Source: Vicinamibacterales bacterium
Lineage (GTDB): Bacteria; Acidobacteriota; Vicinamibacteria; Vicinamibacterales; UBA8438
Direction of reading: 5' to 3'
Length of the DNA stretch: 64,000 nucleotides
Assembly: GCA_965204175.1 (NCBI GenBank)
Contig: OZ241978.1
Span: forward strand, 775,741 to 839,740
Below the pieces are notes generated by a model. The model saw only the letters and a list, made by a program, of their open reading frames with translations, had not been told where the DNA came from and did no database searches. Positions 19,005 to 62,277 of this stretch are shown piece after piece. Position 1 is the first letter of the stretch. Each line of letters begins with the position of its first letter. A program made the translations under genes and the position numbers.

Positions 19005-20000
19005 ATGCGCCACAGATTTCCTGGATCGGCAATCGTCGCGGCCGCGGCCGCGATCCTGGTAACGGCTGGCGTCGCCAGCGGCCAGTCCGGCGACGACAAG
19101 GCCTGGGAGCCGCCCCGCACGGCGGACGGCCAGCCCGACATCTCGGGCGTCTGGACCAACTTCGACCCGACGCCGTTCGAGGCGCCGGACGACGCAGACC
19201 TGGAGCGGCTGGCGCCGCTCGCGGCGTGGTTCCCCGGCAGCAACCGGCCGCAACGGGCGCCCGCGATGCCGGCTTCCGAGGCGGACAGGCGGCGTCCGCC
19301 GCAGGGGCCCTGGGGCGACGGGCCGGGCAGCGCGCCGCGCAACGCGCGCCGGCGGTCCATGGTGGTCGAGCCGTCCAACGGCCGGATTCCGGTGCGCGAT
19401 CACGCGCGCGCGACGCGAGACTACAACCTCATCCACCTGACCGATTCCTACATGAACCACACGCCGTGGGAGCGGTGCATCACCCGCGGGGTGCCCGGGG
19501 GGATCTTCCCGCCGGGCTACGGCGCCGGCTACCGCATCCTCCAGACGCCGGGCTACGTCGTCATCCTCTACGAGATGATCCACGAGGCGCGGATCATCCC
19601 GATCGACGGCCGCCCGCTGCCGTCGGGGAAGATCCGGAGTTGGAACGGGGCGTCGCGCGGCCGCTGGGAAGGGAACACCCTCGTGGTCGAGGTGGGCAAC
19701 TACAACTCCAAGGGCGCGATTGCGACGAACATCGCGACGCGGGGCGCCCGCGGGCTGCCGCGCACCGAGGATCTGCGGGTCGTGGAGCGGTTCACCATCG
19801 CCGGCCCCGACACCCTGGAGTACGAGGTGACGATCGAGGATCCCGCCATCTACACCGGCACCTGGAAGGTGGCGATGCCACTGAACCGCGACAGCACCTA
19901 CACCCTGTTCGAGTATGCCTGCCACGAGGGGAACTACGGCTTGGCGAACAGCCTGAGCGCGGGCCGGGCCGAGGATCGCGAGGCAGCGGAGGGACGGTAG
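19005..20000 (+). CDS. Conserved uncharacterised secreted protein (paralogue of 61237..62277)
   Basis: Signal peptide. The two copies in this window share ADG.PD..GVW, ..VVIL.EM.H.ARI.P.DGR, GRWEG.TLVVE and LFEYACHEGNYG. Confidence 0.75.
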   Translation: MRHRFPGSAIVAAAAAILVTAGVASGQSGDDKAWEPPRTADGQPDISGVWTNFDPTPFEAPDDADLERLAPLAAWFPGSNRPQRAPAMPASEADRRRPPQGPWGDGPGSAPRNARRRSMVVEPSNGRIPVRDHARATRDYNLIHLTDSYMNHTPWERCITRGVPGGIFPPGYGAGYRILQTPGYVVILYEMIHEARIIPIDGRPLPSGKIRSWNGASRGRWEGNTLVVEVGNYNSKGAIATNIATRGARGLPRTEDLRVVERFTIAGPDTLEYEVTIEDPAIYTGTWKVAMPLNRDSTYTLFEYACHEGNYGLANSLSAGRAEDREAAEGR

Positions 20001-24048: not shown

Positions 24049-25536
24049 ATGCGTACCAGCCTGTCCGTTGCCGCCGGTCCAACGCGGCGGGCGGTCGTCA
24101 AGCCGGGCGCCGGGCGTCGCGTGCGCGTCGGGTCGGCCGGTGCCGGCGTCGTCGTGCTCGCAGCGGTTCTCCTCTTCGCGGCGCTCGATGCGGCGGCGCA
24201 GGTCGTCGAGCCGGTGCCGGCCGATGTATCGGAATCCGATGCCGCGCCGGGCCTGATCGAGGCGGTCAAGGCGGGTGACGCCGCCCGGGTCCGGGCGCTG
24301 TTGGAGTCCGGTGTCGATGCCGATGCGGCCCAGTTGGACGGCTCGTCGGCGCTGCTCTGGGCGAGCCACCGCGACGATGTCGAGACCGTCCGGCTGTTGA
24401 TCGAAGCCGGCGCCGATGCGAGCGCCGGGAACGATCTGGGTGCTACCCCGCTCTGGGCGGCCAGCGAGAACGGCAGCACCGCCGTCCTGCGCATGCTGCT
24501 GGAGGCCGGCGCCGACCCGAACCGCGAGCTCCTGAGCGGCGAGACGCCGGTCATGGTGGCCGCCCGGGCCGGCAGCGCGGAGGTGGTTCGGCAACTGGCC
24601 GCGGCCGGTGCCGACCTCGACCGGCAAGGCTCGCGGGGGCAGACGGCCCTGATGTGGGCGGCGGCGCAGCGCCATCCGGACGTTGTCCAGGCACTGCTGG
24701 ACGACGGCGCCGACCTGAGCGTTCGCTCGGACGTCTGGACGCAGGTCATGGCGGTGCCCCCGCACAGCCGGCCGGAGTACAACCGCGAGATCCCCCACGG
24801 CGGCAACACCGCGTTGCTGTTCGCCGTCCGCGCCGGCGACCTGCCGTCGGCACGGGTGCTGGTGGCCGTAGGCGCCGACGTCGACGACGCGGACGCCTGG
24901 GGAGTCAGCGCGGTCGTGCTGGCGGCCCACGGCGGCCACCGCGGGCTGTTGGAGTTCCTCCTCGACAACGGCGCCGATCCGAACGCCGCCGATGCCGGCT
25001 TCGCGGCGCTCCACGACGCGGTGATGCGAAACGACAGCCGGATGGTCGCCGCCCTGCTCGCGCACGGGGCCGATCCCAACCAGCCGTTGCTGACGTGGAC
25101 GCCGACCCGCCGCGCGTCGCGCGATCACCACTACCCGCCGCCGTTCGTCGGCGCCACCCCCTTCTGGCTCGCCGCCCGGTTCGCGCGTGTCGACCTGATG
25201 CGAATGCTCGCCGATCACGGCGCCGACCCGCACTTCGTGCACGAGGTCGACTACATCGTCGACGGCCGCATGCAGTGGCAGACCGAGCGCACCACGGCCC
25301 TGATGGCGGCTTTCGGGATGGCCGGCCGCCGCGCCCGCCCGTGGGTGCCGTACAGCGGTGCTCCCACGGCCGAATTGCGAACCCTCGAAGCCGTCATGTT
25401 AGCCGTCGAGCTCGGCATCGACGTGAATGCGGTCGACGCCACCGGGCGCACCGTGCTCGACGAGGCCGAGGCGCTGCAGTACGAGAGCGTCGTCGAGTAT
25501 CTGGTCGCGGTGGGCGCCGAGCCCGGGGCAAACTAG
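24049..25536 (+). CDS. Ankyrin-repeat protein (membrane-anchored/secreted)
   Basis: AGGAGGA lies upstream of the ATG at 24049. Repeated G.T(P/A)L..A...G....V..LL..GAD.N units occur throughout. Confidence 0.85.
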   Translation: MRTSLSVAAGPTRRAVVKPGAGRRVRVGSAGAGVVVLAAVLLFAALDAAAQVVEPVPADVSESDAAPGLIEAVKAGDAARVRALLESGVDADAAQLDGSSALLWASHRDDVETVRLLIEAGADASAGNDLGATPLWAASENGSTAVLRMLLEAGADPNRELLSGETPVMVAARAGSAEVVRQLAAAGADLDRQGSRGQTALMWAAAQRHPDVVQALLDDGADLSVRSDVWTQVMAVPPHSRPEYNREIPHGGNTALLFAVRAGDLPSARVLVAVGADVDDADAWGVSAVVLAAHGGHRGLLEFLLDNGADPNAADAGFAALHDAVMRNDSRMVAALLAHGADPNQPLLTWTPTRRASRDHHYPPPFVGATPFWLAARFARVDLMRMLADHGADPHFVHEVDYIVDGRMQWQTERTTALMAAFGMAGRRARPWVPYSGAPTAELRTLEAVMLAVELGIDVNAVDATGRTVLDEAEALQYESVVEYLVAVGAEPGAN

Positions 25537-25574: not shown

Positions 25575-26696
25575 TTATCGCGGGTGGCGCTGCACGTATG
25601 CGGCAAGGGACGGGATGCCCGCCCGCCAGTCGTCCCCGCTCTGGGTCAGGAAGCCGTTGCCGACGATGATTCCCCGCGCCACGGCGGCGTCGTCGGCTGG
25701 GATGCCGGCCTGATCCAGAGCCCGGTTCAAGTCGGCGGTGCTGAGGGCGGCGCCGGGCGCGTCGATCTGGGCCGCAATGGTCTGCACGGCGGCCAGCATG
25801 GCGTCGCGGGGGATGCCGTCGCGCCGCGCCGCGTGCTCGAATTCATCGTAACGGTGGCTGTAGAAGTCGGCGCGCACGGCGTCCACGCGCAACCGGGCTG
25901 CCGCCAGGGATTCTCGATCGACCGTTTGCCGACCGCATCCGGCGTCCCACAGGGCCTGACCCCACAGCTGCAGGAACCACGGATAGCCGAGGCTGTCGGC
26001 GGCGGCGGCGTCCAGAACCGCGTCGTCCCGCCGCCAGCCCCGCCAGTTCGGCGCTTCCAGGGCCTCGCGCGAGGCGGCCGGCGAAAGCAGCCCCGGCACG
26101 ATGAGCGGGGCGCGTTCGACGAACGAGGCGTTCACGGCGTCGGAGAGCAGAAACGGCCTGAGTCCGGGCGTGCCGGCCAGCAACAGGGTGACCGGCGCGT
26201 TGCCGCCGGCGCCGCACGCCTGCGCGGCGTTCAGCAGCACGTGCGCGACGTCGGCCGGAAGGGTATGCGCCTCGTCGATGACCAGCAGCCGGGGCTCTCG
26301 ACGATTCCGTAACCGGGCGTTGATTCTCTGCTTCCACCAGGACAGGTCCGGGGCGCGCCGTTCCACGCGCAGGGCGCCGATGGTGGCCTTGGAGATGTCC
26401 AGCATGAGCCGGTCGACGGGGTTCGCCAGCGCGCGGGCAAGACACGGCAGATCGGACAGATCGGCGCCGGTCATCCAATGGACCGTTGCGGGGCCCGTCT
26501 GCTGCAGATCACGCAGCAACACCGTCTTGCCCATCCCGCGCGGCGCCTGCAGCAGATGGATGGGACCCGCGCACCGGGCGTGGAGATCCTCCAGGATGCC
26601 CCGCAGCATGCGGCGCTCCACTTCGCGGCCGGCGAGCACCGGCGGCCGGGTTCCCGGTCCGGGGGCGAACGGATTGCGCGGTGCGGCGGACGCCAT
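25575..26696 (-). CDS. P-loop ATPase (AAA_16/ORC-Cdc6-like)
   Basis: NPFAPGPGTRPPVLAGREVERRMLRGILEDL.. followed by Walker A APRGMGKT and Walker B RLLVIDEAH. ATG at 26696, with an alternative TTG at 26714. Confidence 0.75.
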   Translation of the reverse strand: MASAAPRNPFAPGPGTRPPVLAGREVERRMLRGILEDLHARCAGPIHLLQAPRGMGKTVLLRDLQQTGPATVHWMTGADLSDLPCLARALANPVDRLMLDISKATIGALRVERRAPDLSWWKQRINARLRNRREPRLLVIDEAHTLPADVAHVLLNAAQACGAGGNAPVTLLLAGTPGLRPFLLSDAVNASFVERAPLIVPGLLSPAASREALEAPNWRGWRRDDAVLDAAAADSLGYPWFLQLWGQALWDAGCGRQTVDRESLAAARLRVDAVRADFYSHRYDEFEHAARRDGIPRDAMLAAVQTIAAQIDAPGAALSTADLNRALDQAGIPADDAAVARGIIVGNGFLTQSGDDWRAGIPSLAAYVQRHPR

Positions 26697-27023
26697 CGGG
26701 GCAACCTTGTTCAACGTCGATGGTATGAATCCGCCGTGTCGACGTCAACGCGGTCGGCGCCGCCGGCCGATCCGACCGGTTCGATCATCGTGACAAGAAC
26801 CGTAGTTGATCCGGGGGCGGGAACTTCAGAACCGGCCCGGAATGACCTCCCGCACGTTGCCCGGCGAGGCCCCGTATTTGCTTGGCGCAGAAACGCTGGG
26901 AGCCGATACCTTGTCCACGTACCGGGGCGGCCGCCGGTGTTGGGATATGCTCTGCACGACACGGGACGGGGGCCTGCGTGCAGACCGGACACGAGACGTG
27001 GGTGTTTCGAAGGCGGGGAATTG

Positions 27024-27299
27024 GTGACTGATCTGGAACAGGCCTTCGACGACGTCGAGAGCGCCGCCGCCTCGACGCTCGAGTCGGCGGCCGGTCTCGT
27101 CAAGCAGGCCCGGAGCCTGCAGAAGGCGGCCCGCGAAGGAAACATCGTTCGCTTGAAGCGGGCCCGGGCGGATCTCGACTCGTCCCTGAGCGGGCTCCGG
27201 CAGGCAGTTGCGAATGCCGTCGCATCGTGGGTTTTCCGGACGAAGAGCAGGAGGCGCGATACCTTGAGGAGCGGTACTCGGACGAGCTCCGGTCCGTAG
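27024..27299 (+). CDS. Cassette gene A, N-terminal coiled-coil part (frame 0), probably continuous with 27227..27829 across a frame break
   Basis: VTDLEQAFDDVESAAASTLESAAGLVKQARSLQKAAREGNIVRLKRARADLDSSLSGLRQAVANAVASW is coding-like. The following 23 codons (VFRTKSRRRDTLRSGTRTSSGP) are not. Start is GTG 27024 or TTG 27021. Confidence 0.45.
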   Translation: MTDLEQAFDDVESAAASTLESAAGLVKQARSLQKAAREGNIVRLKRARADLDSSLSGLRQAVANAVASWVFRTKSRRRDTLRSGTRTSSGP

Positions 27300-27829
27300 C
27301 CGCCGGGAAGGGCCTGGAAATACACGAGCGGGACGGCAGGCTGATTTCCCATCCTTCCATCGTGCGCCTGCTGCCGCGCGATCGGGCGGTCAGGATAGAC
27401 GGCAGGAAGGTATCCACCATCCGGCCGTCCTATCTGGCCGATCTGCTGCTGAAGAATCAGAACAAGAGCAGCCGCCACAAGTCCGACGCCTTCCTGGAAT
27501 CGCTGTACGCGGTCTACGCCGACATCGTGCACGGCGAATCCTCGGGCCGCCTCATGGCCGACGACTGGCAGCGAGTCGTGCCCCTGGCCAGAATCTACAA
27601 GCTGCTGACCGCGCTGCCCGGTGCGGGCCGCGACTACGACAGAACGGACTTCGCCAGCGACCTGTACCGCCTGCAGGATGGTGGCCCCACGCGCACGAGG
27701 AAGGGGGCGACCGTCTCCTTTCCGGCTTCTTCCGGCACGCGGCAGGCCAAACGCGATCTGTTCACTTTCGTCGGACCCGACGGCCAGGACGTCGTGTACT
27801 ACGGCATCCGGTTCACGAAGGGCGGCTGA
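27227..27829 (+). CDS. Cassette gene A, C-terminal part (frame -1 relative to 27024 ORF); uncharacterised
   Basis: Coding-like translation starts exactly where the upstream frame degenerates: GFPDEEQEARYLEERYSDELRSVAAGKGLEIHERDGRLISHPSIVRLLP... It ends with TGATG coupling to gene B. Confidence 0.6.
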   Translation: MGFPDEEQEARYLEERYSDELRSVAAGKGLEIHERDGRLISHPSIVRLLPRDRAVRIDGRKVSTIRPSYLADLLLKNQNKSSRHKSDAFLESLYAVYADIVHGESSGRLMADDWQRVVPLARIYKLLTALPGAGRDYDRTDFASDLYRLQDGGPTRTRKGATVSFPASSGTRQAKRDLFTFVGPDGQDVVYYGIRFTKGG

Positions 27830-28803
27830 TGCCGAGCGGGTCGAGCACCATCCCGATCGACGACTGGCTGCGCCACGTCGATGGCGAGTACCTGTCCACG
27901 TTCATCAAGGATGGCGGATCCTCCGTCAAGTTCGCCGTGGTCCCGGACGACGCGCTGCCCGGGTTGTGCGAGGCCGTGGCGGGTCGCTGCGCAGCGCGCG
28001 ATTACGTCTTCGTCTCGCTGGACGCGGCCAGGCTCCGCGTCCACATGCCGCAGGACATCTTCTTCGAGCTGGCTCGGCAGGTGCAATGGCGCCATTTGGC
28101 GCGCCGCGTGATTCTGCGCCTGGCCGCCGAACGGCACTACACGGTGGAAGGCATCGATCCGGGCGGCGGCGGCAACGTCTTCGACGCGATTGCCGGCGCC
28201 AACGACCTCGAGTCGCAGTTTCTGCTCAGCGAAATCAGGCCCGCGATACAGGAGCGCGTCTTCAGGAATCCGAACCTGGCCAGGGATTTTCGCGTGGCCA
28301 TGACCCAACTCTGCCTGCAGGAGGGGAACCGCTTCGACGGCGAGTACGGCGGCCGGCCGTTGCTGGACTGGCTGACCGGCGCCAACACGCGCGTGAGCCC
28401 GGTCCGCCAGTTCTCCATCTATACGGGCATCAACCGCACCACGGGCAGGCACTGCATCGAATCGGCGCTCCACTGGATCCGCCAGGCGGGGCATGCCGGA
28501 ACGGTGATGCTGCTGAACAACCGCCGCGTGACCGTGGCCCGCAATCCCAGGGACGGCCTGCGGTACTACACGCGCGCCATGGCCGTCGATCACTACGAAT
28601 TGCTGCGCGAGTTCGTCGACGACGTCGACCGTCTGGCCGGGACGCTGATGCTGGTGGCGACCGGTCCGGGCTTCGTCGACGATGAGCCGGGCGCGCGTTC
28701 CAGGGGCTTCGGCATCTACGAGGCGCTGAAGACGCGGGTGATGGACGACGTGCGCGACAGGCACCGGGTCAATCCGGTCGCGGCGCTGGTTCGGCTGGCG
28801 TGA
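27829..28803 (+). CDS. Cassette gene B: BrxD/DUF2791-like protein lacking Walker A/B (putative inactive paralogue)
   Basis: Start ATG overlaps the gene A stop by 1 nt. It is co-linear by eye with gene C, but has DGGSSVKFAVVPDD where C has GDFGAGKSHLL, and TVMLLNNRRV where C has WVVLLDELE. Confidence 0.65.
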   Translation: MPSGSSTIPIDDWLRHVDGEYLSTFIKDGGSSVKFAVVPDDALPGLCEAVAGRCAARDYVFVSLDAARLRVHMPQDIFFELARQVQWRHLARRVILRLAAERHYTVEGIDPGGGGNVFDAIAGANDLESQFLLSEIRPAIQERVFRNPNLARDFRVAMTQLCLQEGNRFDGEYGGRPLLDWLTGANTRVSPVRQFSIYTGINRTTGRHCIESALHWIRQAGHAGTVMLLNNRRVTVARNPRDGLRYYTRAMAVDHYELLREFVDDVDRLAGTLMLVATGPGFVDDEPGARSRGFGIYEALKTRVMDDVRDRHRVNPVAALVRLA

Positions 28804-28820
28804 GGAGGTCGGCGGGAGAC

Positions 28821-30146
28821 ATGGCGGTTCACCGGGACGAGAGGCTGGCACGGCGGCGCGCCGTCGAGGCCCTGCGCAGCGGCGTGCCCAACCGGGATGC
28901 GGTGGCGATGCTGGGCTGCAAGCAGCCGCGGGCGGAAGAGGCATTCTCCGCGCTGCTGGCCGGGGCCGGGAATGCCGGCGGCCCGGCGGGCGACGCGCTG
29001 GGGATGCTGGTCTCCGGGGACTTCGGCGCGGGCAAGTCGCACCTGCTGGCGCATCTCGAGCGCCAGGCGCTCGCGCGGAGTTTCGTCTGCAGCAGGGTCG
29101 CGGTCAGCAAGGAGACGCCGCTCTACGACCTCGGGAAGGTGTTCAGGTCCGCGATCGAGAACGGGCGGATGCCGGATCGACAGGGGCGGTTGATCGAGGA
29201 GCTGGGTCTGGTGACGGACTGGCGTTCCCGGGCTGCCGCGGATTTCCTGCAGTGGGCCGATGCCGCCGCCTCCAGCGGCATGCTCAGCCGGATGTTTCCG
29301 GCGAGCCTGCTCCTCTACGGTCGATTGGGCGACATCGAGTTGAACGGCAGGATCGAGTCGTTCTGGGCGGGAGACCGGTTGAAGGTCTCGGAGGTCAAGA
29401 GCGGGTTGGCGTCGATAGGGCAGAAGCAATCCGGTTCCTTCCGGGCGCCCAGAGCCGCGGAGTTGCCGCCGCAGCGCCTGCGCTTCGCCATCGAGCTGAT
29501 CAGGTGCGCCGGCTACAAGGGCTGGGTCGTGCTCCTGGACGAGCTGGAGCTGGTCGGGTCGTATTCCATCCTGCAGCGCGGCCGGTCGTATGCCGAGCTG
29601 GCGCGCTGGATGGGAAAGTCCGTCGAATCGTACCCGGGCCTGGTCGCCGTCGGCACGGTGACCGACGACTTCGCATCGGCCGTCATCAGTCCCGACGGCG
29701 GCAAGAAGGACCGCGACCACGTGGGGCCGCGGCTGGCGAAGAGCCGGTACGCGGGCATCGCCGCCCTGGCCGAGGCGGGCATGCGCCTGCTGGAGCAGTC
29801 GTGCCTGCCGCTGAACGCGCCGGCGGAAGAGGACGTGAACGACACGCTCGACAAGCTGCGGAAGATCTACAGCGAAGCCTACGACTGGGAGGCTCCGCGG
29901 CTGGAGGGCAGGACCGGCGGCGCCGGGGTTCAGGCCCGCATGCGCTACAAGGTCAGGGCCGCGATCAACGAATGGGATCTGCTGCGGATGTACCCCGGTT
30001 CCGCGCCGGATACCGTGGTGGACGAGTTTCGTGCGACGTACGAGGAAGACGCCGACCTGGAGCGGAAGTCCGGGGACGTTGCAGACGCGCCGGGCAGGGG
30101 ACCATTGCGCCTGTTGCAAGAGCTGCGGTCCCGTGCCCGCGGGTGA
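28821..30146 (+). CDS. Cassette gene C: BrxD/DUF2791-like P-loop ATPase (PF10923-type)
   Basis: RRRAVEALRSGVPNRDAVAMLG.. N-terminal helix, Walker A GDFGAGKSHLLAHL, then ..SKETPLYDLGKVFRSAIE.., Walker B WVVLLDELELVG. The alternative GTG start at 28800 overlaps the gene B stop (GTGA). Confidence 0.75.
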   Translation: MAVHRDERLARRRAVEALRSGVPNRDAVAMLGCKQPRAEEAFSALLAGAGNAGGPAGDALGMLVSGDFGAGKSHLLAHLERQALARSFVCSRVAVSKETPLYDLGKVFRSAIENGRMPDRQGRLIEELGLVTDWRSRAAADFLQWADAAASSGMLSRMFPASLLLYGRLGDIELNGRIESFWAGDRLKVSEVKSGLASIGQKQSGSFRAPRAAELPPQRLRFAIELIRCAGYKGWVVLLDELELVGSYSILQRGRSYAELARWMGKSVESYPGLVAVGTVTDDFASAVISPDGGKKDRDHVGPRLAKSRYAGIAALAEAGMRLLEQSCLPLNAPAEEDVNDTLDKLRKIYSEAYDWEAPRLEGRTGGAGVQARMRYKVRAAINEWDLLRMYPGSAPDTVVDEFRATYEEDADLERKSGDVADAPGRGPLRLLQELRSRARG

Positions 30147-30152
30147 GTCGTA

Positions 30153-30869
30153 CTACGGCGTCGCGCGGATCCGCCGCGCGCGCGCTTCCAGCGGTCCGGC
30201 CTCGACGCCCCGGTTGGTGGCCCGCAACAATCCGGCGTATTCCTCCAGGACCTCGGCCAGCCGGACGTTGTCCGGTTCCAGCGCGAGTTCCAGAATTGCC
30301 AGCGAGCGTTCGTAGAGCGGTTCGGCCTCCGCGTGCAGCCCCTGCCGGTAGTAGACGGACGCCAGAGCGGCGAGGTGGACGGCAACGTCGGGATGCGCCC
30401 AGCCGAGCGCCGGCTCCATGATCGCGACGGCCTGCTCGTAGCGCGGCTCCGCCTCGGTGTAGATCCCCTGCTCGGCGTAGAACGCCGCGACCATGGCGAG
30501 ATGGGCCGCCAGGTCGAGGTGGTCGGGGCCGAGCGCCGCTTCGATGACCTCGGTTGCCTGCCGGTAGAGCACCTCGGCCTCCGCGTGGCGGTCTTCCGCG
30601 ACGCAGATCTCCGCCAGGTCGTTCAACGTCATCGCCCGCCGCAGGTCATCGGCGGGAAAGGCCGCAGCGTAGTCGGCCGCCACCAGCAGCAGCTCTTCGG
30701 CTTCGCCGTAGCGGCCGTCCTGGCGGGCGTGGTAGGCGGCCTCCATGTAGTCCTCCCATTGCAGTCCGCCACAGCCGATCACGCCGGAGAGAAGAACGAA
30801 CAGCGCAACGATGGCCGGAGCGCACCGCACCGGGCGCCGTGTGCGCGGGTCGGTGGCCGAATCCCGCAT
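30153..30869 (-). CDS. TPR-repeat lipoprotein (TPR_10/12-like)
   Basis: ATG at 30869 gives MRDSATDPRTRRPVRCAPAIVALFVLLSGVIGC, a lipobox-like signal. Four or more A.LYRQA..I.E.ALGPDHP.VA..L..LA type repeats follow. It converges on gene C with a 6-bp gap. Confidence 0.75.
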   Translation of the reverse strand: MRDSATDPRTRRPVRCAPAIVALFVLLSGVIGCGGLQWEDYMEAAYHARQDGRYGEAEELLLVAADYAAAFPADDLRRAMTLNDLAEICVAEDRHAEAEVLYRQATEVIEAALGPDHLDLAAHLAMVAAFYAEQGIYTEAEPRYEQAVAIMEPALGWAHPDVAVHLAALASVYYRQGLHAEAEPLYERSLAILELALEPDNVRLAEVLEEYAGLLRATNRGVEAGPLEARARRIRATP

Positions 30870-31040
30870 GGCGACGCCGATTATGACATCCGTCACACCA
30901 TGCAAGTGACGCCTTGCACTACCGGGCCGCCCGGCCCTGTCCGTACGATCTTTCGATGCGGCACATGTTATCCGCGAGTCGCCGGACTCGTATCACCGGC
31001 GGCATGATCGCGTGCAATCACGACAGGAGGATCGACAGCG

Positions 31041-51476: not shown

Positions 51477-52256
51477 TCAACCGGGGCGAGCCGCGTACGG
51501 CGGTGCTTCTTCACGAACGCGTACGCTGTTTTGTTGGCGGCGGCGCACGATACGGGCGACGGCCTCGGTTCGCTCCTCGAGCGTCACACCGAGGCGTACA
51601 CCGTCCACGGCCTCGCGGACGTCCCCCGGCGTGAGGCTGCCGATCACTTCGGAGGCGGCGATCTCGCGCGGCTCCGTTCCCGGATGCAGGGCGAGGAACT
51701 CCACGCGCAGCTCGCGCGTTCCCTTCCGGCCGTGCAGCCGCCACAACTCGCGCACGCCGATCTTCGCGTACCGTCCGATCTTGCCCTCGTCGCGGTTCGT
51801 GATCTCGGCCTCGACCACCAGGTCGAGCGGGGTCCGTTCGAAGAAGGCGTCCGCGGCTGCCTCACCCTCGGCTTGCGCGGCGCGATAGGCCCTGGCGCGC
51901 GCGCCCACGTAGAACGCGCAGTCCGGCTCCATGCCCGTTCCGGGCGGATCGCCGGGTCCGCGCAGACGGGTATGGCGGAGGCCCTTCGCCGCGCCGGCGA
52001 GAACGCTCGCCGCGGCGTCCACGATGAGGTTCAGGATGTCGGTCAGGTCCTCGTGAAGCCGCGAGGGTGTCATCAGAGTGATGAGTCCGCGCACCGGATC
52101 GAGGCACACGCGCGAGAACGACCGGTTCCAGTCGATGGCGGCGAGCTCGGCGATGGTCCCGGCGTCGGCGCGCAGCACGTGAAACGTAGAGCCCAGCGGC
52201 CCGGTGTGTGTCGTGGCCTCCCGCCCGCTCGCCACCCGTTCGTCACGCTTCGACAT
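51477..52256 (-). CDS. Uma2-like PD-(D/E)XK endonuclease-fold protein (paralogue 1)
   Basis: The internal ATG at 52256 gives MSKRDERV... Core strings: ..LDPVRGLITLMTPSRLHEDL.., ..GMEPDCAFY.., PLDLVVEAEITNRDEGKIGRYAKIGVRELW. The upstream 314 codons of track ORF 51477..53198 are antisense to the DUF4143 gene. Confidence 0.7.
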   Translation of the reverse strand: MSKRDERVASGREATTHTGPLGSTFHVLRADAGTIAELAAIDWNRSFSRVCLDPVRGLITLMTPSRLHEDLTDILNLIVDAAASVLAGAAKGLRHTRLRGPGDPPGTGMEPDCAFYVGARARAYRAAQAEGEAAADAFFERTPLDLVVEAEITNRDEGKIGRYAKIGVRELWRLHGRKGTRELRVEFLALHPGTEPREIAASEVIGSLTPGDVREAVDGVRLGVTLEERTEAVARIVRRRQQNSVRVREEAPPYAARPG

Positions 52257-54831: not shown

Positions 54832-55626
54832 TCAAACGGAGTCCTGCGGCGCAGACTCCCGACCGGGCGGGGCAGCGTCGGGCGTCTCCGCCTCACGGAC
54901 GCGTTCGCTGGCGCGCCGACGACGGCGGACGATGCGGGCGACGGCTTCTGTCCGTTCGTCCCGTGTCAAACAAAACCGTACGCTGTCCGCCGCCTCGCAG
55001 ACGTCGCCCGGTGTAAGGCCGGCGAGAACCGCGGAGGCGGCGAGCCGCCGCGGCGGCCGCGCGGGTTGCAGGGCGAAGAAGTCCGCCCTCAGGAATCTTG
55101 TCCCCTTGCGGCCGTGCAACTGCCAGAGCTCGCGCACCCCAATGTCGCCGTAGCGCTCGATCTTGCCCTTGTCGGCGTGCGTGATCTCCACCTCGACCAC
55201 GAGGTCGGGCGGGGTGCGTTCGAAGAATGCCTCCGCCGCAGCTTCGCCCTCGACCAGCGCCGCCCGATACGCCCAGGCCCGCTCGTCCAGGTAGAAGGCA
55301 CAGTCCGGCTCCATGCCCGTGCCCGGCGGTTCGTTCCGTCCGCGGAGACGCGTCGTGCGGAGTTTCCTGGCGGCGCTCACCGCGGCATCCACGATGTCGT
55401 CGAGAATCGTGGCGAGGTCGTCGTGCAGGCGCGACGGAGTCATCAGCACGACGAGCCCGCGCACCGGATCGAGGCATACTCGACCGAACCACCGGTTCCA
55501 GTCGACGGCGGCCAGCGCGGTCACGGTCCCGGCATCGGCGTGCAGGACGTGGACCTGGGAGCCCAGCGGCCCGGTATGCATCGTGGCCGGGCTGCCGATG
55601 GTCACGCGATCGGTGTGAACGTCCAC
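54832..55626 (-). CDS. Uma2-like PD-(D/E)XK endonuclease-fold protein (paralogue 2)
   Basis: Alignable along its whole length with 51477..52256 (PPGTGMEPDCAFY, FFERTP.DLVVE.EIT, GVRELW.LHGRKGTR, ERTEAVARIVRRR). The start is uncertain (GTG 55626 chosen by analogy, ATG 55581 possible). Confidence 0.65.
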   Translation of the reverse strand: MDVHTDRVTIGSPATMHTGPLGSQVHVLHADAGTVTALAAVDWNRWFGRVCLDPVRGLVVLMTPSRLHDDLATILDDIVDAAVSAARKLRTTRLRGRNEPPGTGMEPDCAFYLDERAWAYRAALVEGEAAAEAFFERTPPDLVVEVEITHADKGKIERYGDIGVRELWQLHGRKGTRFLRADFFALQPARPPRRLAASAVLAGLTPGDVCEAADSVRFCLTRDERTEAVARIVRRRRRASERVREAETPDAAPPGRESAPQDSV

Positions 55627-61236: not shown

Positions 61237-62277
61237 ATGAGTAACCGAGGATATGCAGTGGCTCTGGTTCTGCTGGTGTTCACGTCGGGGGCGACGGCGC
61301 CGGCAGCGGCCCAGTCCGAGTTCGAGCCGCCGCGCCTTGCCGACGGCAAGCCGGACCTGCAGGGGGTCTGGGACTTTCGCACGCTGACCCCGCTGCAGCG
61401 GCCCGAGGACCGTGCCGACCAGGCGCTGCTGACGCCGGAAGAGGCCGCGGAGATCGAGGCGGCGGCGGTACAGCGCGCCATCGAGGCGGACCGGCCGAGC
61501 GAGATTCGAACCGAGCCTCTGCCGGTGGGCGGCAACGTGGGCGGGTACAACAACTTCTGGTTCGACCGCGGGGCCGGCGTGGTGGACGACCGCCGCACGT
61601 CGCTCATCGTCGATCCGCCGAACGGGCGGCTTCCGGAGGCGCAGCCGGACGCGAAGCGTCAGGAGACGACGAACGACGACACGTCGACGCCGGACCGGCC
61701 GGTGCGCTTCCGGGTGGGCGGCATCGGGACGCACGGCCCCGAGGACCGCGGGCTCGCCGAGCGCTGTCTCCTCGGGTTCAATACCGGCCCGCCGATTGTG
61801 CCGGGCGGATACAACCAGAACATGCAGCTCTTCCAGACCCCGGATCACGTGGTCATCCTCAACGAAATGGTGCACGACGCGCGCATCGTGCCGCTTGACG
61901 GACGCGACCCGCTCCCCGCGGACATGCGGCAGTGGATGGGCAGCTCGCGGGGGCGCTGGGAGGGTGACACGCTGGTCGTCGAGACCACCAACTTTACCGG
62001 CCTGACCGCCAGCTTCGGTCCGTCGGTCCGCTCGGCCATCGGGACGGGCGCAACGATGCACCTGACGGAGCGGTTCAGTCGGGTCGGCGAGGACACGCTC
62101 CTGTACGAGTTCACCGTCGACGACCCCACCAGCTTCACGCGGCCGTTCACGGCGGCGATTCCGATGAAGCGGGGAGCCGCGCCGCTGTTCGAGTACGCCT
62201 GCCACGAGGGGAACTACGGGATGCTCAACCTGCTCTCCGGCGCCCGCGCGCAGGAGCGGGAGGCGTCCGAGCAGTAG
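61237..62277 (+). CDS. Conserved uncharacterised secreted protein (paralogue of 19005..20000)
   Basis: AGGAG RBS and a signal peptide. Shares motifs with 19005..20000 (see that entry). Confidence 0.75.
   Translation: MSNRGYAVALVLLVFTSGATAPAAAQSEFEPPRLADGKPDLQGVWDFRTLTPLQRPEDRADQALLTPEEAAEIEAAAVQRAIEADRPSEIRTEPLPVGGNVGGYNNFWFDRGAGVVDDRRTSLIVDPPNGRLPEAQPDAKRQETTNDDTSTPDRPVRFRVGGIGTHGPEDRGLAERCLLGFNTGPPIVPGGYNQNMQLFQTPDHVVILNEMVHDARIVPLDGRDPLPADMRQWMGSSRGRWEGDTLVVETTNFTGLTASFGPSVRSAIGTGATMHLTERFSRVGEDTLLYEFTVDDPTSFTRPFTAAIPMKRGAAPLFEYACHEGNYGMLNLLSGARAQEREASEQ

What the first reader, a model, noticed from the sequence alone, without database searches (positions are those of the whole stretch)
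25575..30905. Orphan BrxD/DUF2791-like three-gene cassette with flanking ATPase and TPR lipoprotein: candidate undescribed NTPase-based (defence-like) module
Seen in sequence:
- Three same-strand genes, A (27021/27024-27829), B (27829-28803) and C (28800/28821-30146), are translationally coupled. The junctions are TGATG at 27827-27831 and GTGA at 28800-28803.
- C has Walker A GDFGAGKSHLL, Walker B WVVLLDELE and the N-terminal RRRAVEALRSGVPNRD helix. I recognise this as the BrxD/DUF2791 (PF10923-type) layout.
- B is co-linear with C but lacks both nucleotide-binding motifs.
- A is a coiled coil plus a domain I cannot place.
- A second, unrelated P-loop ATPase (25575-26696; PRGMGKT / LLVIDEAH) is transcribed divergently from a shared ~300-bp intergenic region.
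- A TPR lipoprotein converges 6 bp after C.
- The cassette uses visibly more A/T-ending codons (for example AAG AAT CAG AAC AAG AGC at ~27450) than the flanking housekeeping genes.

Established knowledge: BrxD-type ATPases are known as accessory components of BREX loci.

Inference: no PglZ, PglX methyltransferase, BrxA/B/C/L, helicase or nuclease gene occurs in this window, so this is not a BREX locus. It looks like a stand-alone, horizontally acquired ATPase/pseudo-ATPase module of unknown function, plausibly anti-phage or stress-sensing.
Basis: partly seen in the sequence, partly recalled or inferred. Interest (0 to 1): 0.8.

Follow-up and report, generated by a model that had tools for sequence, protein, structure and literature searches.

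The report
Helicase-less remnant of unnamed BrxD-like operon
The three genes are a damaged, helicase-less copy of a conserved but unnamed four-gene operon (new protein A, a dead and a live BrxD-like ATPase, and a SNF2 helicase) that has spread across bacterial phyla and is most likely an uncharacterised anti-phage/anti-plasmid system.

Summary
The genes and motifs are real, but gene A is not one ORF here. It is split by a 1-nt deletion near 27236 that the five closest homologues lack.

No BREX gene is in the window.

A-B-C adjacency holds in about 76 of 80 genome loci from Acidobacteria, Chloroflexota, Alpha/Gammaproteobacteria, Binatia and Latescibacterota. At least two of these MAGs are from sponge symbionts.

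The decisive addition is a fourth gene. In 59 of 80 loci a ~700-aa SNF2 helicase (D) follows C directly. A syntenic relative (L083) reads A-B-C-D-TPR, so the window's lineage deleted D. The TPR gene is only a chromosomal neighbour. The divergent ATPase is a neighbour seen only next to the closest copy (L091), with a remnant in L084.

A belongs to an unannotated family of 814 clusters with no Pfam domain and no structural match. Distant A-B-C-D loci lie in clear defence islands, while others sit among housekeeping genes.

Verdict: a decaying, helicase-less derivative of an apparently undescribed ATPase-pair plus SNF2 candidate defence operon. It parallels BrxD-BrxHI and Shango in layout but is a member of neither. 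The family is interesting; this copy is a poor exemplar.

The parts
27024..27230 (+). Gene A, 5' fragment (69 codons; long-helix/coiled-coil N-terminus), in frame 0
   Evidence: It is 81-90% identical to the N-termini of the intact 268-aa A proteins of L001-L004 and P0121 is 96% identical to the repaired full-length A. In the AF2 model this part forms long helices 4-38 and 41-67.
27233..27238 (+). Frameshift site in A: one base is missing relative to all five closest homologues
   Evidence: The window reads TGGGT-TTTCCGG where L091 reads TGGGTCTTTCCGG. A is the only one of 12 genes shared with L084 that is split into two frames. There is no X XXY YYZ slippery heptamer in the 0 frame.
27227..27829 (+). 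Gene A, 3' fragment (homologous from about 27237; the 200-codon ORF starts at GTG 27227), in the -1 frame relative to the 5' fragment
   Evidence: The AF2 model of this part has pLDDT 84 and is mixed alpha/beta. It has no Foldseek match at E<1e-3.
27829..28803 (+). Gene B: 324-aa paralogue of C without Walker A (pseudo-ATPase)
   Evidence: It matches PF10923 at 29.1 bits and PADLOC BrxD at 1.9e-6. No P-loop is present in any of the 76 aligned B sequences (75 loci plus the window). The Walker B region aligns with that of C.
28821..30146 (+). Gene C: BrxD-like (PF10923, ORC/Cdc6-type AAA+) ATPase with intact Walker A and B; alternative start GTG 28800
   Evidence: It matches PF10923 at 66.1 bits. 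It scores 56 bits against NCBIfam BREX_BrxD, whose cutoff is 350.
30075..30146 (+). Lineage-specific C-terminal extension of C and deletion scar where gene D (SNF2 helicase) used to follow (boundaries approximate)
   Evidence: In the alignment, L083's C stops at a TAG where the D-less genomes read CAG after a 1-nt gap. The window sequence then aligns to L083's C-D spacer and runs straight into the TPR gene's stop. The last ~20 residues of C are not covered by homologues from D-containing loci.

Best explanation
The window carries a truncated and damaged copy of a conserved four-gene operon, A-B-C-D, for which no name was found in the resources searched.

Components:
- A is a ~268-aa stand-alone protein: three long N-terminal helices plus a mixed alpha/beta body with no recognisable fold.
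- B is a degenerate BrxD-like AAA+ protein without a P-loop.
- C is the catalytically competent BrxD-like (PF10923) AAA+ ATPase.
- D is a ~700-aa SNF2-family helicase/translocase with an unknown ~250-aa N-terminal domain.

Shown:
- An ancestor of this Vicinamibacterales-like lineage had A-B-C-D next to the same TPR gene.
- D was then deleted and C gained a short new C-terminus.
- In this genome A also carries a 1-nt frameshift.

Inferred mechanism of the intact system:
- B and C form a hetero-oligomeric AAA+ module with one live and one dead nucleotide site.
- Together with A as adaptor or sensor, this module recognises foreign or aberrant DNA and loads or activates the SNF2 motor.
- The motor then translocates on that DNA and blocks its replication or strips proteins from it.
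- This would make the operon an anti-phage/anti-plasmid defence system, built like the BrxD-BrxHI pair of type 2 BREX and like Shango.

Inferred state here: with D gone and A broken, this copy is probably inactive or reduced to a residual B-C function.
For: Operon and its loss (shown):
- A-B-C is adjacent and co-oriented in about 76 of 80 loci from at least 6 phyla.
- A full-length SNF2 gene follows C directly in 59 of 80 loci at 52-81% identity.
- L083 (C 82% identical) has A-B-C-D and then the orthologous TPR gene (84.5%), with the same downstream CIA30/HisKA_3/response-regulator/TauE genes as the window.
- The deletion scar is visible.
- The frameshift is shown.

Decay in the same D-less lineage:
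- L004 has a frameshift in B.
- L075 keeps only the 3' third of C.

ATPase assignment:
- PMC12839542 classifies BrxD as an ORC/Cdc6-type AAA+ that forms a tight dyad with the BrxHI helicase, and proposes helicase loading.

Defence reading (inferred):
- Distant A-family loci L089 and L090 carry A-B-C-helicase. They lie among a WYL regulator, SbcCD-like/AAA_15 ATPases, a NACHT NTPase, three tandem integrases and a Dnd-associated gene.
- L083 lies beside a gene set of a large Helicase_C protein, a DUF1998/MZB protein and a UvrD_C protein.
- In L087 the operon is inserted between ribD and ribE of a riboflavin operon.
- Identity of 55-70% across phyla implies horizontal transfer.
- C's best PADLOC hits are BrxD and SngB, and D's are ZorD, DpdE and DrmD.
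Against: - There is no experimental evidence for any member.
- No nuclease or other toxic effector domain is recognised in A-D.
- Many loci sit among housekeeping genes (polA, hrpA/pst, rib) without other defence genes.
- The proteins are rather well conserved (dN/dS 0.05-0.36), unlike fast-evolving sensors.
- 21 of 80 loci lack an adjacent D, in several phyla. A-B-C in the D-less genomes still shows dN/dS of 0.15-0.30, so A-B-C may not need D and the window copy may not be 'dead'.
- The frameshift could be a single assembly error.
- The locus sample was seeded with peptides from the window's own C and is biased towards close relatives.
Confidence: 0.6

Rival explanations
1. A-B-C is a self-sufficient three-gene NTPase module. 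The helicase is an optional accessory, and the cassette in this lineage is still functional, for example as a sensor/ATPase acting with another motor in trans.
For: - 21 of 80 loci lack an adjacent D. These fall in two Vicinamibacterales groups, Chloroflexota (L074), Dehalococcoidia (L080) and Alphaproteobacteria (L053, L055, L063), mostly with intact A, B and C.
- dN/dS among D-less genomes is 0.15-0.30, overlapping the 0.05-0.36 of D-containing pairs.
- All divergence among the window group postdates the shared deletion scar.
Against: - The window's own A is frameshifted.
- L004 (B frameshift) and L075 (only a C fragment left) show decay in the same lineage.
- The ancestral and majority state includes D.
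- No D-like gene from the D-less chromosomes appears in the nearest D protein clusters, but a divergent helicase acting in trans cannot be excluded.
Confidence: 0.25
2. The operon is a housekeeping-type DNA-transaction machine rather than an immune system. It could act in replication restart, repair, or RapA-like removal of stalled complexes: an AAA+ loader plus a SNF2 translocase working on the cell's own DNA.
For: - It is adjacent to polA (L085), hrpA (L081) and uvrD (L082) in some genomes.
- The proteins are under purifying selection.
- No effector domain is recognised.
- No match was found in phage or plasmid collections or in viral contigs.
Against: - The distribution is patchy, with cross-phylum identity of 55-70%.
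- It is inserted inside a riboflavin operon.
- Distant members lie in integrase-bearing defence islands.
- The helicase, or parts of A-B-C, were lost more than once. This is not expected of a core function.
Confidence: 0.15
3. The genes belong to a mobile element, and the AAA+ pair is a TniB/MuB/IstB-like regulator of its transposition or maintenance.
For: - ORC/Cdc6-like and IstB/TniB AAA+ proteins are related. This rests on established knowledge.
- The operon is inserted between ribD and ribE.
- The neighbouring window ATPase gives a weak PHROG 'DNA transposition protein' hit, but that gene is not part of the module.
Against: - No transposase or integrase is among the conserved genes.
- No terminal inverted or direct repeats flank the cassette in L087 or the window beyond chance-size matches.
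- There are no hits on plasmids, phages or viral contigs.
Confidence: 0.04
4. It is a fragment of a BREX (type 2/Pgl) locus, with C as the bona fide BrxD.
For: C and B pass the Pfam PF10923 'BrxC_BrxD' threshold, and BrxD is their best PADLOC and NCBIfam hit.
Against: - C scores 56 bits against the NCBIfam BREX_BrxD equivalog, whose cutoff is 350.
- No PglZ, PglX, BrxC or PglW appears in the window or in the Pfam annotations of eleven gene-called homologous loci.
- The partner helicase is SNF2. BrxHI is described as Ski2/Lhr-like (PMC12839542).
Confidence: 0.02

Closest known systems
BrxD-BrxHI dyad of type 2 BREX (Pgl)
   Same: - C, and weakly B, fall in the same Pfam family (PF10923) as BrxD, a stand-alone ORC/Cdc6-type AAA+ ATPase.
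- In the intact operon the ATPase is immediately followed by an SF2 helicase. This matches the tight BrxD-BrxHI linkage, for which helicase loading has been proposed (PMC12839542).
   Different: - There is no PglZ, PglX, BrxC or PglW.
- C is far below the BrxD equivalog cutoff (56 against 350 bits).
- The helicase is SNF2, not the Ski2/Lhr-like BrxHI.
- The ATPase is duplicated into a live and a dead copy.
- There is an extra protein A of unknown fold.
Shango (SngA TerB-like protein, SngB ATPase, SngC helicase)
   Same: - The logic is the same: a small non-enzymatic protein, then a P-loop ATPase, then an SF2 helicase, in one operon with no recognisable nuclease.
- C gives a weak PADLOC SngB hit (E 2.5e-5, Walker A region only).
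- Shango is an experimentally shown anti-phage system (bioRxiv 10.1101/2022.11.11.516204).
   Different: - A has no TerB domain and no Pfam hit at all.
- Similarity to SngB is marginal and local.
- D's best hits are ZorD, DpdE and DrmD-type SNF2 models, and SngC is not among the top 25.
- Shango as described in that preprint has a single ATPase gene and no second, P-loop-less copy.
SNF2 helicases of Zorya (ZorD), Dpd (DpdE) and DISARM (DrmD)
   Same: Gene D of the intact operon matches these models over its helicase core (E 1e-42 to 1e-75).
   Different: - The matches cover only the generic SNF2 core.
- D's ~250-aa N-terminal domain matches nothing.
- None of the partner genes of Zorya, Dpd or DISARM is conserved next to A-B-C-D.
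- D is absent from the window.
AAA+ loader/helicase pairs (ORC/Cdc6-MCM, DnaC-DnaB) and AAA+ assemblies with degenerate subunits
   Same: The arrangement is an ORC/Cdc6-class ATPase next to a helicase, with a catalytically dead paralogue alongside an active one. The class assignment comes from PMC12839542 and the comparison is by analogy.
   Different: - SNF2 enzymes are double-strand translocases and are not known to need ring loading.
- No interaction data exist.
- This is a working analogy, not homology-based membership.

Membership tests
BREX (any type) | PglZ phosphatase, a PglX/BrxX methyltransferase (or PAPS reductase) and BrxC/PglY in the locus | tested here: not met
   A PADLOC scan of 51 window ORFs shows no PglZ, PglX or BrxA/B/C/L family among the 25 listed of 28 families hit at E<=1e-5. 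Pfam annotations of eleven gene-called homologous loci show none either.
BrxD proper (NCBIfam NF033438 equivalog) | Score at or above the curated cutoff of 350 bits | tested here: not met
   C scores 56.2 bits and B scores 25.8 bits.
Pfam PF10923 BrxC_BrxD (formerly DUF2791) | Score at or above the gathering threshold of 22.2 bits | tested here: met
   C scores 66.1 bits and B scores 29.1 bits. The same holds for the homologues in L081.
Active P-loop/AAA+ ATPase | Walker A GxxxxGK[ST] and Walker B hhhhDE, conserved across the family | tested here: met
   This applies to C only. GDFGAGKSH and LLDELE are conserved in at least 90-98% of 76 sequences. B has no Walker A in any member, and its Walker B equivalent is LLNN here against a family consensus of LLDN.
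Shango | TerB-domain SngA | tested here: not met
   A, and its full-length homologue in L081, has no Pfam, PADLOC or NCBIfam hit.
Shango | SngB ATPase and SngC helicase orthologues | tested here: inconclusive
   C matches SngB at E 2.5e-5 over residues 66-109 only. D's 25 best PADLOC families do not include SngC. There is no helicase in the window.
The A-B-C-D operon defined here | Intact A-family gene directly upstream of B | tested here: not met
   A is present and P0121 is 96% identical to the repaired full-length A, but it is split by a 1-nt deletion.
The A-B-C-D operon defined here | B and C paralogue pair adjacent, in that order, on the same strand | tested here: met
The A-B-C-D operon defined here | SNF2 helicase D directly downstream of C | tested here: not met
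   tblastn of D against the window finds no hit at E<=1e-5. The TPR gene's stop lies 6 nt after C. The deletion scar is shown.
Anti-phage defence system (generic) | Preferential location in defence islands or variable hotspots | tested here: inconclusive
   Islands are clear in L083, L089 and L090. Flanks are housekeeping genes in L081, L082, L085, L086 and L087. No statistical test was possible.
Anti-phage defence system (generic) | Protection against phage or plasmid when expressed | not testable with these tools
   This needs an experiment.

The most novel reading that the evidence does not exclude
A-B-C-D is a new, widespread anti-mobile-element immune system that has so far been missed by defence-system catalogues. 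It comprises a protein of novel fold (A), an ATPase/pseudo-ATPase pair related to BrxD, and a SNF2 motor with a novel N-terminal domain. It is exchanged horizontally among phylogenetically distant bacteria sharing a habitat, notably sponge symbionts. Its B-C pair works as an ATP-gated loader or switch for the SNF2 translocase, so the system restricts DNA without a nuclease.
Probability: 0.45. Interest if true: 0.7.

Novelty: new variant of a known kind. Interest (0 to 1): 0.5.

Why it matters
If the intact operon is an immune system, it adds a nuclease-free ATPase-plus-SNF2 design. It would also offer a natural experiment, a live/dead ATPase pair, for asking what BrxD-type ATPases do. That question is still open for type 2 BREX and Shango.

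Part of the PF10923 signal earlier read as 'Pgl/BREX enrichment' in sponge microbiomes (PMC5099237) might belong to this operon instead. This is an inference.

For this genome the practical message is narrower. The cassette is a helicase-less, frameshifted remnant and should not be annotated as BREX or as an intact system.

Tried and rejected
- **Programmed -1 frameshift in A.** Rejected. There is no X XXY YYZ heptamer in the 0 frame. All 120 listed A homologues are single proteins, almost all covering 99-100% of the repaired A, and the nearest relative has one more base at the site.
- **Fold assignment for A.** AF2 models have pLDDT 86 (full length) and 84 (C-terminal 195 aa). Foldseek against PDB and BFVD gave nothing at E<1e-3. 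Weak kleisin, TFIIE and ORC winged-helix-like hits at E 0.3-5 are not usable.
- **PDB sequence searches.** B, C and the flanking ATPase gave no hits or only noise.
- **PHROGs.** Nothing for A, B or C.
- **Plasmids, phages and viral contigs.** tblastn of C against both PLSDB plasmids and GenBank phages, tblastn of A against PLSDB plasmids, and a scan of IMG/VR viral contigs with the A alignment gave no match.
- **Transposon-like ends.** Around the cassette in L087 and the window there were only chance-size repeats.
- **D elsewhere in D-less genomes.** I looked for contig lengths among D homologues. The table's 'longest_contig' proved to describe the representative only. The cluster-member look-up showed no member from the 7.2-8.5 Mb D-less chromosomes. 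This is weak negative evidence only.
- **Replacement helicase in the second D-less Vicinamibacterales group.** The upstream large ORFs are a radical-SAM gene and the flanks are ordinary syntenic genes.
- **First ORF clustering of flanks.** It was confounded by overlapping spurious ORFs in 70% GC DNA. I replaced it with targeted tblastn and gene-called loci.
- **Literature searches.** Searches for DUF2791, PF10923, BrxD, SNF2 and Shango found no description of this operon.

Full report
**1. What is in the window**

The window is about 70% GC. ORF listing and translation confirm B (27829-28803) and C (ending 30146) on the + strand. They also confirm a divergent P-loop gene at 25575-26714(-) and a convergent TPR gene at 30153-30905(-).

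The quoted junctions are real.
- TGA/ATG overlap at 27827-31.
- GTG/TGA overlap at 28800-03.
- The TPR stop lies 6 nt after C's stop.

The quoted motifs are at the stated places.

Two corrections are needed.
- Gene A is not one ORF. The coiled-coil N-terminus (27024-27230) and the rest (27227-27829) are in different frames.
- C probably starts at ATG 28821, 12 nt after a GGAGG, as in the 441-aa gene calls of its closest homologues.

**2. The frameshift in A**

DNA alignment with the four closest genome loci shows one base missing at about 27236. Alignment with the nearest metagenomic relative L091 shows the same: A there encodes P0121, 96% identical to the repaired protein, and reads TGGGTCTTTCC where the window reads TGGGT-TTTCC.

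The site has no slippery heptamer in the 0 frame, so a programmed shift is unlikely.

Of 12 genes shared with the syntenic locus L084, only A is split. The assembly is therefore not generally error-ridden. A single miscall still cannot be excluded without reads.

**3. Family assignments**

- **C:** Pfam PF10923 BrxC_BrxD at 66.1 bits (gathering score 22.2). PADLOC BrxD at 5e-15 and SngB at 2.5e-5. NCBIfam BREX_BrxD at only 56 bits against a cutoff of 350.
- **B:** PF10923 at 29.1 bits and BrxD at 1.9e-6.
- **Walker motifs:** across the 76 aligned sequences (75 loci plus the window), C's Walker A and B are nearly invariant, while B never has a P-loop. B's VMLLNNRRV (family consensus LLDN) aligns with C's VVLLDELE.
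- **A:** no hit in Pfam, NCBIfam, PADLOC or PHROGs.
- **No BREX:** a PADLOC scan of 51 window ORFs finds no PglZ, PglX or BrxA/B/C/L among the families listed.

**4. Conservation elsewhere, and the missing fourth gene**

A scan of species-representative genomes with peptides from C returned 80 loci. They come from Vicinamibacterales/Acidobacteria, Dehalococcoidia/Chloroflexota, Alpha- and Gammaproteobacteria, Binatia, Latescibacterota, Acidimicrobiia and others, with C 51-91% identical.

tblastn shows A, B and C adjacent and co-oriented in about 76 of them. The flanking ATPase is absent apart from two weak 26% hits. The TPR gene is present only in the closest relatives.

Gene-called loci then revealed a ~700-aa SNF2-family helicase (SNF2-rel_dom, ResIII, Helicase_C) immediately after C. 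Full-length homologues of it follow C in 59 of 80 loci, and none is in the window. Its helicase core matches the ZorD, DpdE and DrmD models. Its ~250-aa N-terminal domain matches nothing.

**5. The window's lineage deleted the helicase**

L083 is an 8.5-Mb Vicinamibacterales-like chromosome with C 82% identical. It reads A-B-C-D and then, on the opposite strand, the orthologue of the window's TPR gene (84.5%). The same CIA30/HisKA_3/response-regulator/TauE genes follow, as downstream in the window and in L084.

In the alignment of the junctions, the D-less genomes (window, L001, L084) read through the position of L083's stop codon and continue into sequence homologous to the C-D spacer. In the window this runs directly into the end of the TPR gene. 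D was therefore lost by deletion, and the TPR gene is simply the next chromosomal gene.

The slot upstream of A is also variable.
- L083, L001, L004 and L006 share a 553-aa gene of unknown function there. In L083 it follows a gene set of a large Helicase_C protein, a DUF1998/MZB protein and a UvrD_C_2 protein.
- The window and L091 carry the AAA_22/AAA_16 ATPase.
- L084 keeps only a remnant of that ATPase.

**6. Is the remnant still under selection?**

Pairwise dN/dS among D-less genomes is 0.15-0.30 for A, B and C. D-containing pairs give 0.05-0.36, so constraint is not obviously relaxed.

The same lineage nevertheless shows lesions: the window's A frameshift, a B frameshift in L004, and L075 with only the last third of C left. 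Lesions also occur in some D-containing loci (L041, L066, L073).

The nearest D protein clusters contain no member from the D-less chromosomes. This is weak evidence that D is really gone.

Another 15 or so loci in other clades also lack an adjacent D. A D-independent role for A-B-C therefore remains a live rival.

**7. Composition**

GC3 is 0.83-0.84 for A and 0.89 for B and C, against 0.86-0.96 for eleven flanking genes. Only A is marginally low.

There is no local signal of recent acquisition, and the cassette is syntenic in relatives. At family level, 55-70% identity between phyla implies horizontal transfer. In L087 the operon, together with a PIN gene and a 216-aa gene, sits between ribD and ribE.

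**8. Protein A**

A profile search of 1.84 billion representatives finds 814 clusters at E<=1e-3. Of these, 249 are at E<=1e-30, and almost all of the 150 listed are stand-alone proteins of about 255-290 aa.

AF2 gives confident models: pLDDT 86 for the full length and 84 for the C-terminal 195 residues. The model has three long N-terminal helices, a small beta unit, a helical core and a C-terminal beta hairpin region. Foldseek finds nothing at E<1e-3 in PDB or BFVD.

**9. Context and function**

Two distant A-family members were looked up.
- L089 lies among a WYL regulator, a Metallophos protein with SMC/AAA_15 ATPases, and an RNase_H/AAA_11-12 helicase.
- L090 lies among three tandem integrases, SSB, a NACHT NTPase, a Dnd-associated gene and AAA_15/23 ATPases.

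Both carry A-B-C followed by a 700-aa helicase. These are typical defence islands.

Other loci are flanked by housekeeping genes. No match exists on plasmids, phages or viral contigs, and no element ends were found.

The literature held here describes BrxD as an ORC/Cdc6-type AAA+ tightly paired with the BrxHI helicase and suggests helicase loading (PMC12839542). It describes Shango as a TerB-like protein plus an ATPase plus a helicase with shown anti-phage activity. No paper describing the present operon was found.

At least two of the MAG series carrying the operon are sponge symbionts: APA_bin from Aplysina aerophoba and SB06xx_bin from Ircinia ramosa. A sponge metagenome study counted PF10923 as a Pgl gene that was present in sponges and absent from seawater.

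**10. Verdict**

*Shown:*
- This is a helicase-deleted, A-frameshifted derivative of a conserved A-B-C-D operon.
- It is not BREX.
- The TPR gene is not part of it, and the flanking ATPase adjoins it only in the nearest relatives.

*Inferred (about 0.5-0.6):*
- The intact operon is an unnamed anti-mobile-element system.
- In it, a live/dead BrxD-like ATPase pair, with A, controls a SNF2 translocase.

*Novelty:* a new variant of the known 'AAA+ ATPase plus SF2 helicase' kind of defence module.

*Interest:* moderate. The family merits experimental follow-up, but an intact locus should be used rather than this one.

Noticed in passing
L083:1-7880; homologues of its 553-aa gene at L001:3949-5607, L004:837-2408, L006:3793-5373: Directly upstream of A in L083 lies a co-oriented four-gene set. 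It comprises a >=1078-aa Helicase_C protein, a 613-aa MZB/DUF1998 protein, a 388-aa UvrD_C_2 protein and a 553-aa protein with no Pfam hit. It looks like a DISARM/DrmAB-like or related defence module. Homologues of the 553-aa gene lie upstream of A in L001, L004 and L006. The window has the AAA_22 ATPase in this slot instead.
   Followed up: partly
window 25575-26714 (-); L091:3-194; L084:7479-7652: The divergent AAA_22/AAA_16 ATPase is shared with the nearest relative L091 and survives only as a 65-residue remnant (45% identical) in L084. Its only other relatives found are 25-30% identical 'ATP-binding proteins' on actinobacterial and Polaromonas plasmids. Its function is unknown and it appears to be cargo of a variable slot.
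   Followed up: partly
L087:13485-14594 and L086:13440-14564: A PIN-domain gene (149-154 aa) and a 216-aa gene without a Pfam domain converge on the end of D in two genomes (68-74% identical between them). In L087 the whole block A-B-C-D plus this pair is inserted between ribD and ribE of the riboflavin operon.
   Followed up: partly
L089:15175-17069 and L090:15274-17543: In the two distant A-B-C-helicase loci, the helicase is followed by a 59-68-aa gene and a 572-688-aa AAA_15/AAA_23 (SMC_N-like) ATPase. These could be further components of that branch or a neighbouring system.
   Followed up: no
L084:11391-12380 (-): In one D-less relative a 329-aa HATPase_c_4 plus HTH (AsnC-type) gene sits between C and the TPR gene, where the window has nothing and L083 has D. 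This is another sign that the spot is a variable slot.
   Followed up: no
L075:8001-8483; L004:7031-8001; L073:5651-8678; L070:7538-9215: Other lesions occur in the family. L075 keeps only the last third of C. L004 has a frameshift in B. C of L073 is interrupted by about 1.7 kb. L070 has lost B and half of A.
   Followed up: partly
window, gene(s) not located (whole-window scan of 51 ORFs): The PADLOC scan of all window ORFs gave strong hits to candidate-system models: PDC-S01 at 2e-56, PDC-M72A at 2.2e-48, mad3 at 6.6e-32 (2 ORFs), mad8 at 9e-13 (2 ORFs) and RT-Protease_XI at 1.7e-18. I did not determine which ORFs matched. These may be generic ATPase or two-component-regulator domains.
   Followed up: no
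window 51480-52235 (-) and 54835-55605 (-); also 19005-19997 and 61276-62274: There are two pairs of paralogous genes within the window. One pair of ~250-aa proteins is 68% identical. One pair of ~330-aa proteins is 40% identical.
   Followed up: no
window 24049-25536 (+) and 30153-30905 (-): An ankyrin-repeat protein (homologous to the L084 gene with Pfam Ank_2/Ank_4/Ank_5 hits) and a TPR_12/NPHP3-type TPR lipoprotein flank the cassette. The TPR gene shows a 126-nt internal periodicity (30312-30587). From general knowledge, such eukaryote-like repeat proteins are typical of sponge symbionts. That fits the habitat suggested by related MAG names.
   Followed up: partly
literature: PMC5099237: A sponge-metagenome study counted PF10923 as a Pgl/BREX gene that was present in sponges and absent from seawater. 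Some of that signal might come from this non-BREX operon. This is an inference and was not tested.
   Followed up: no
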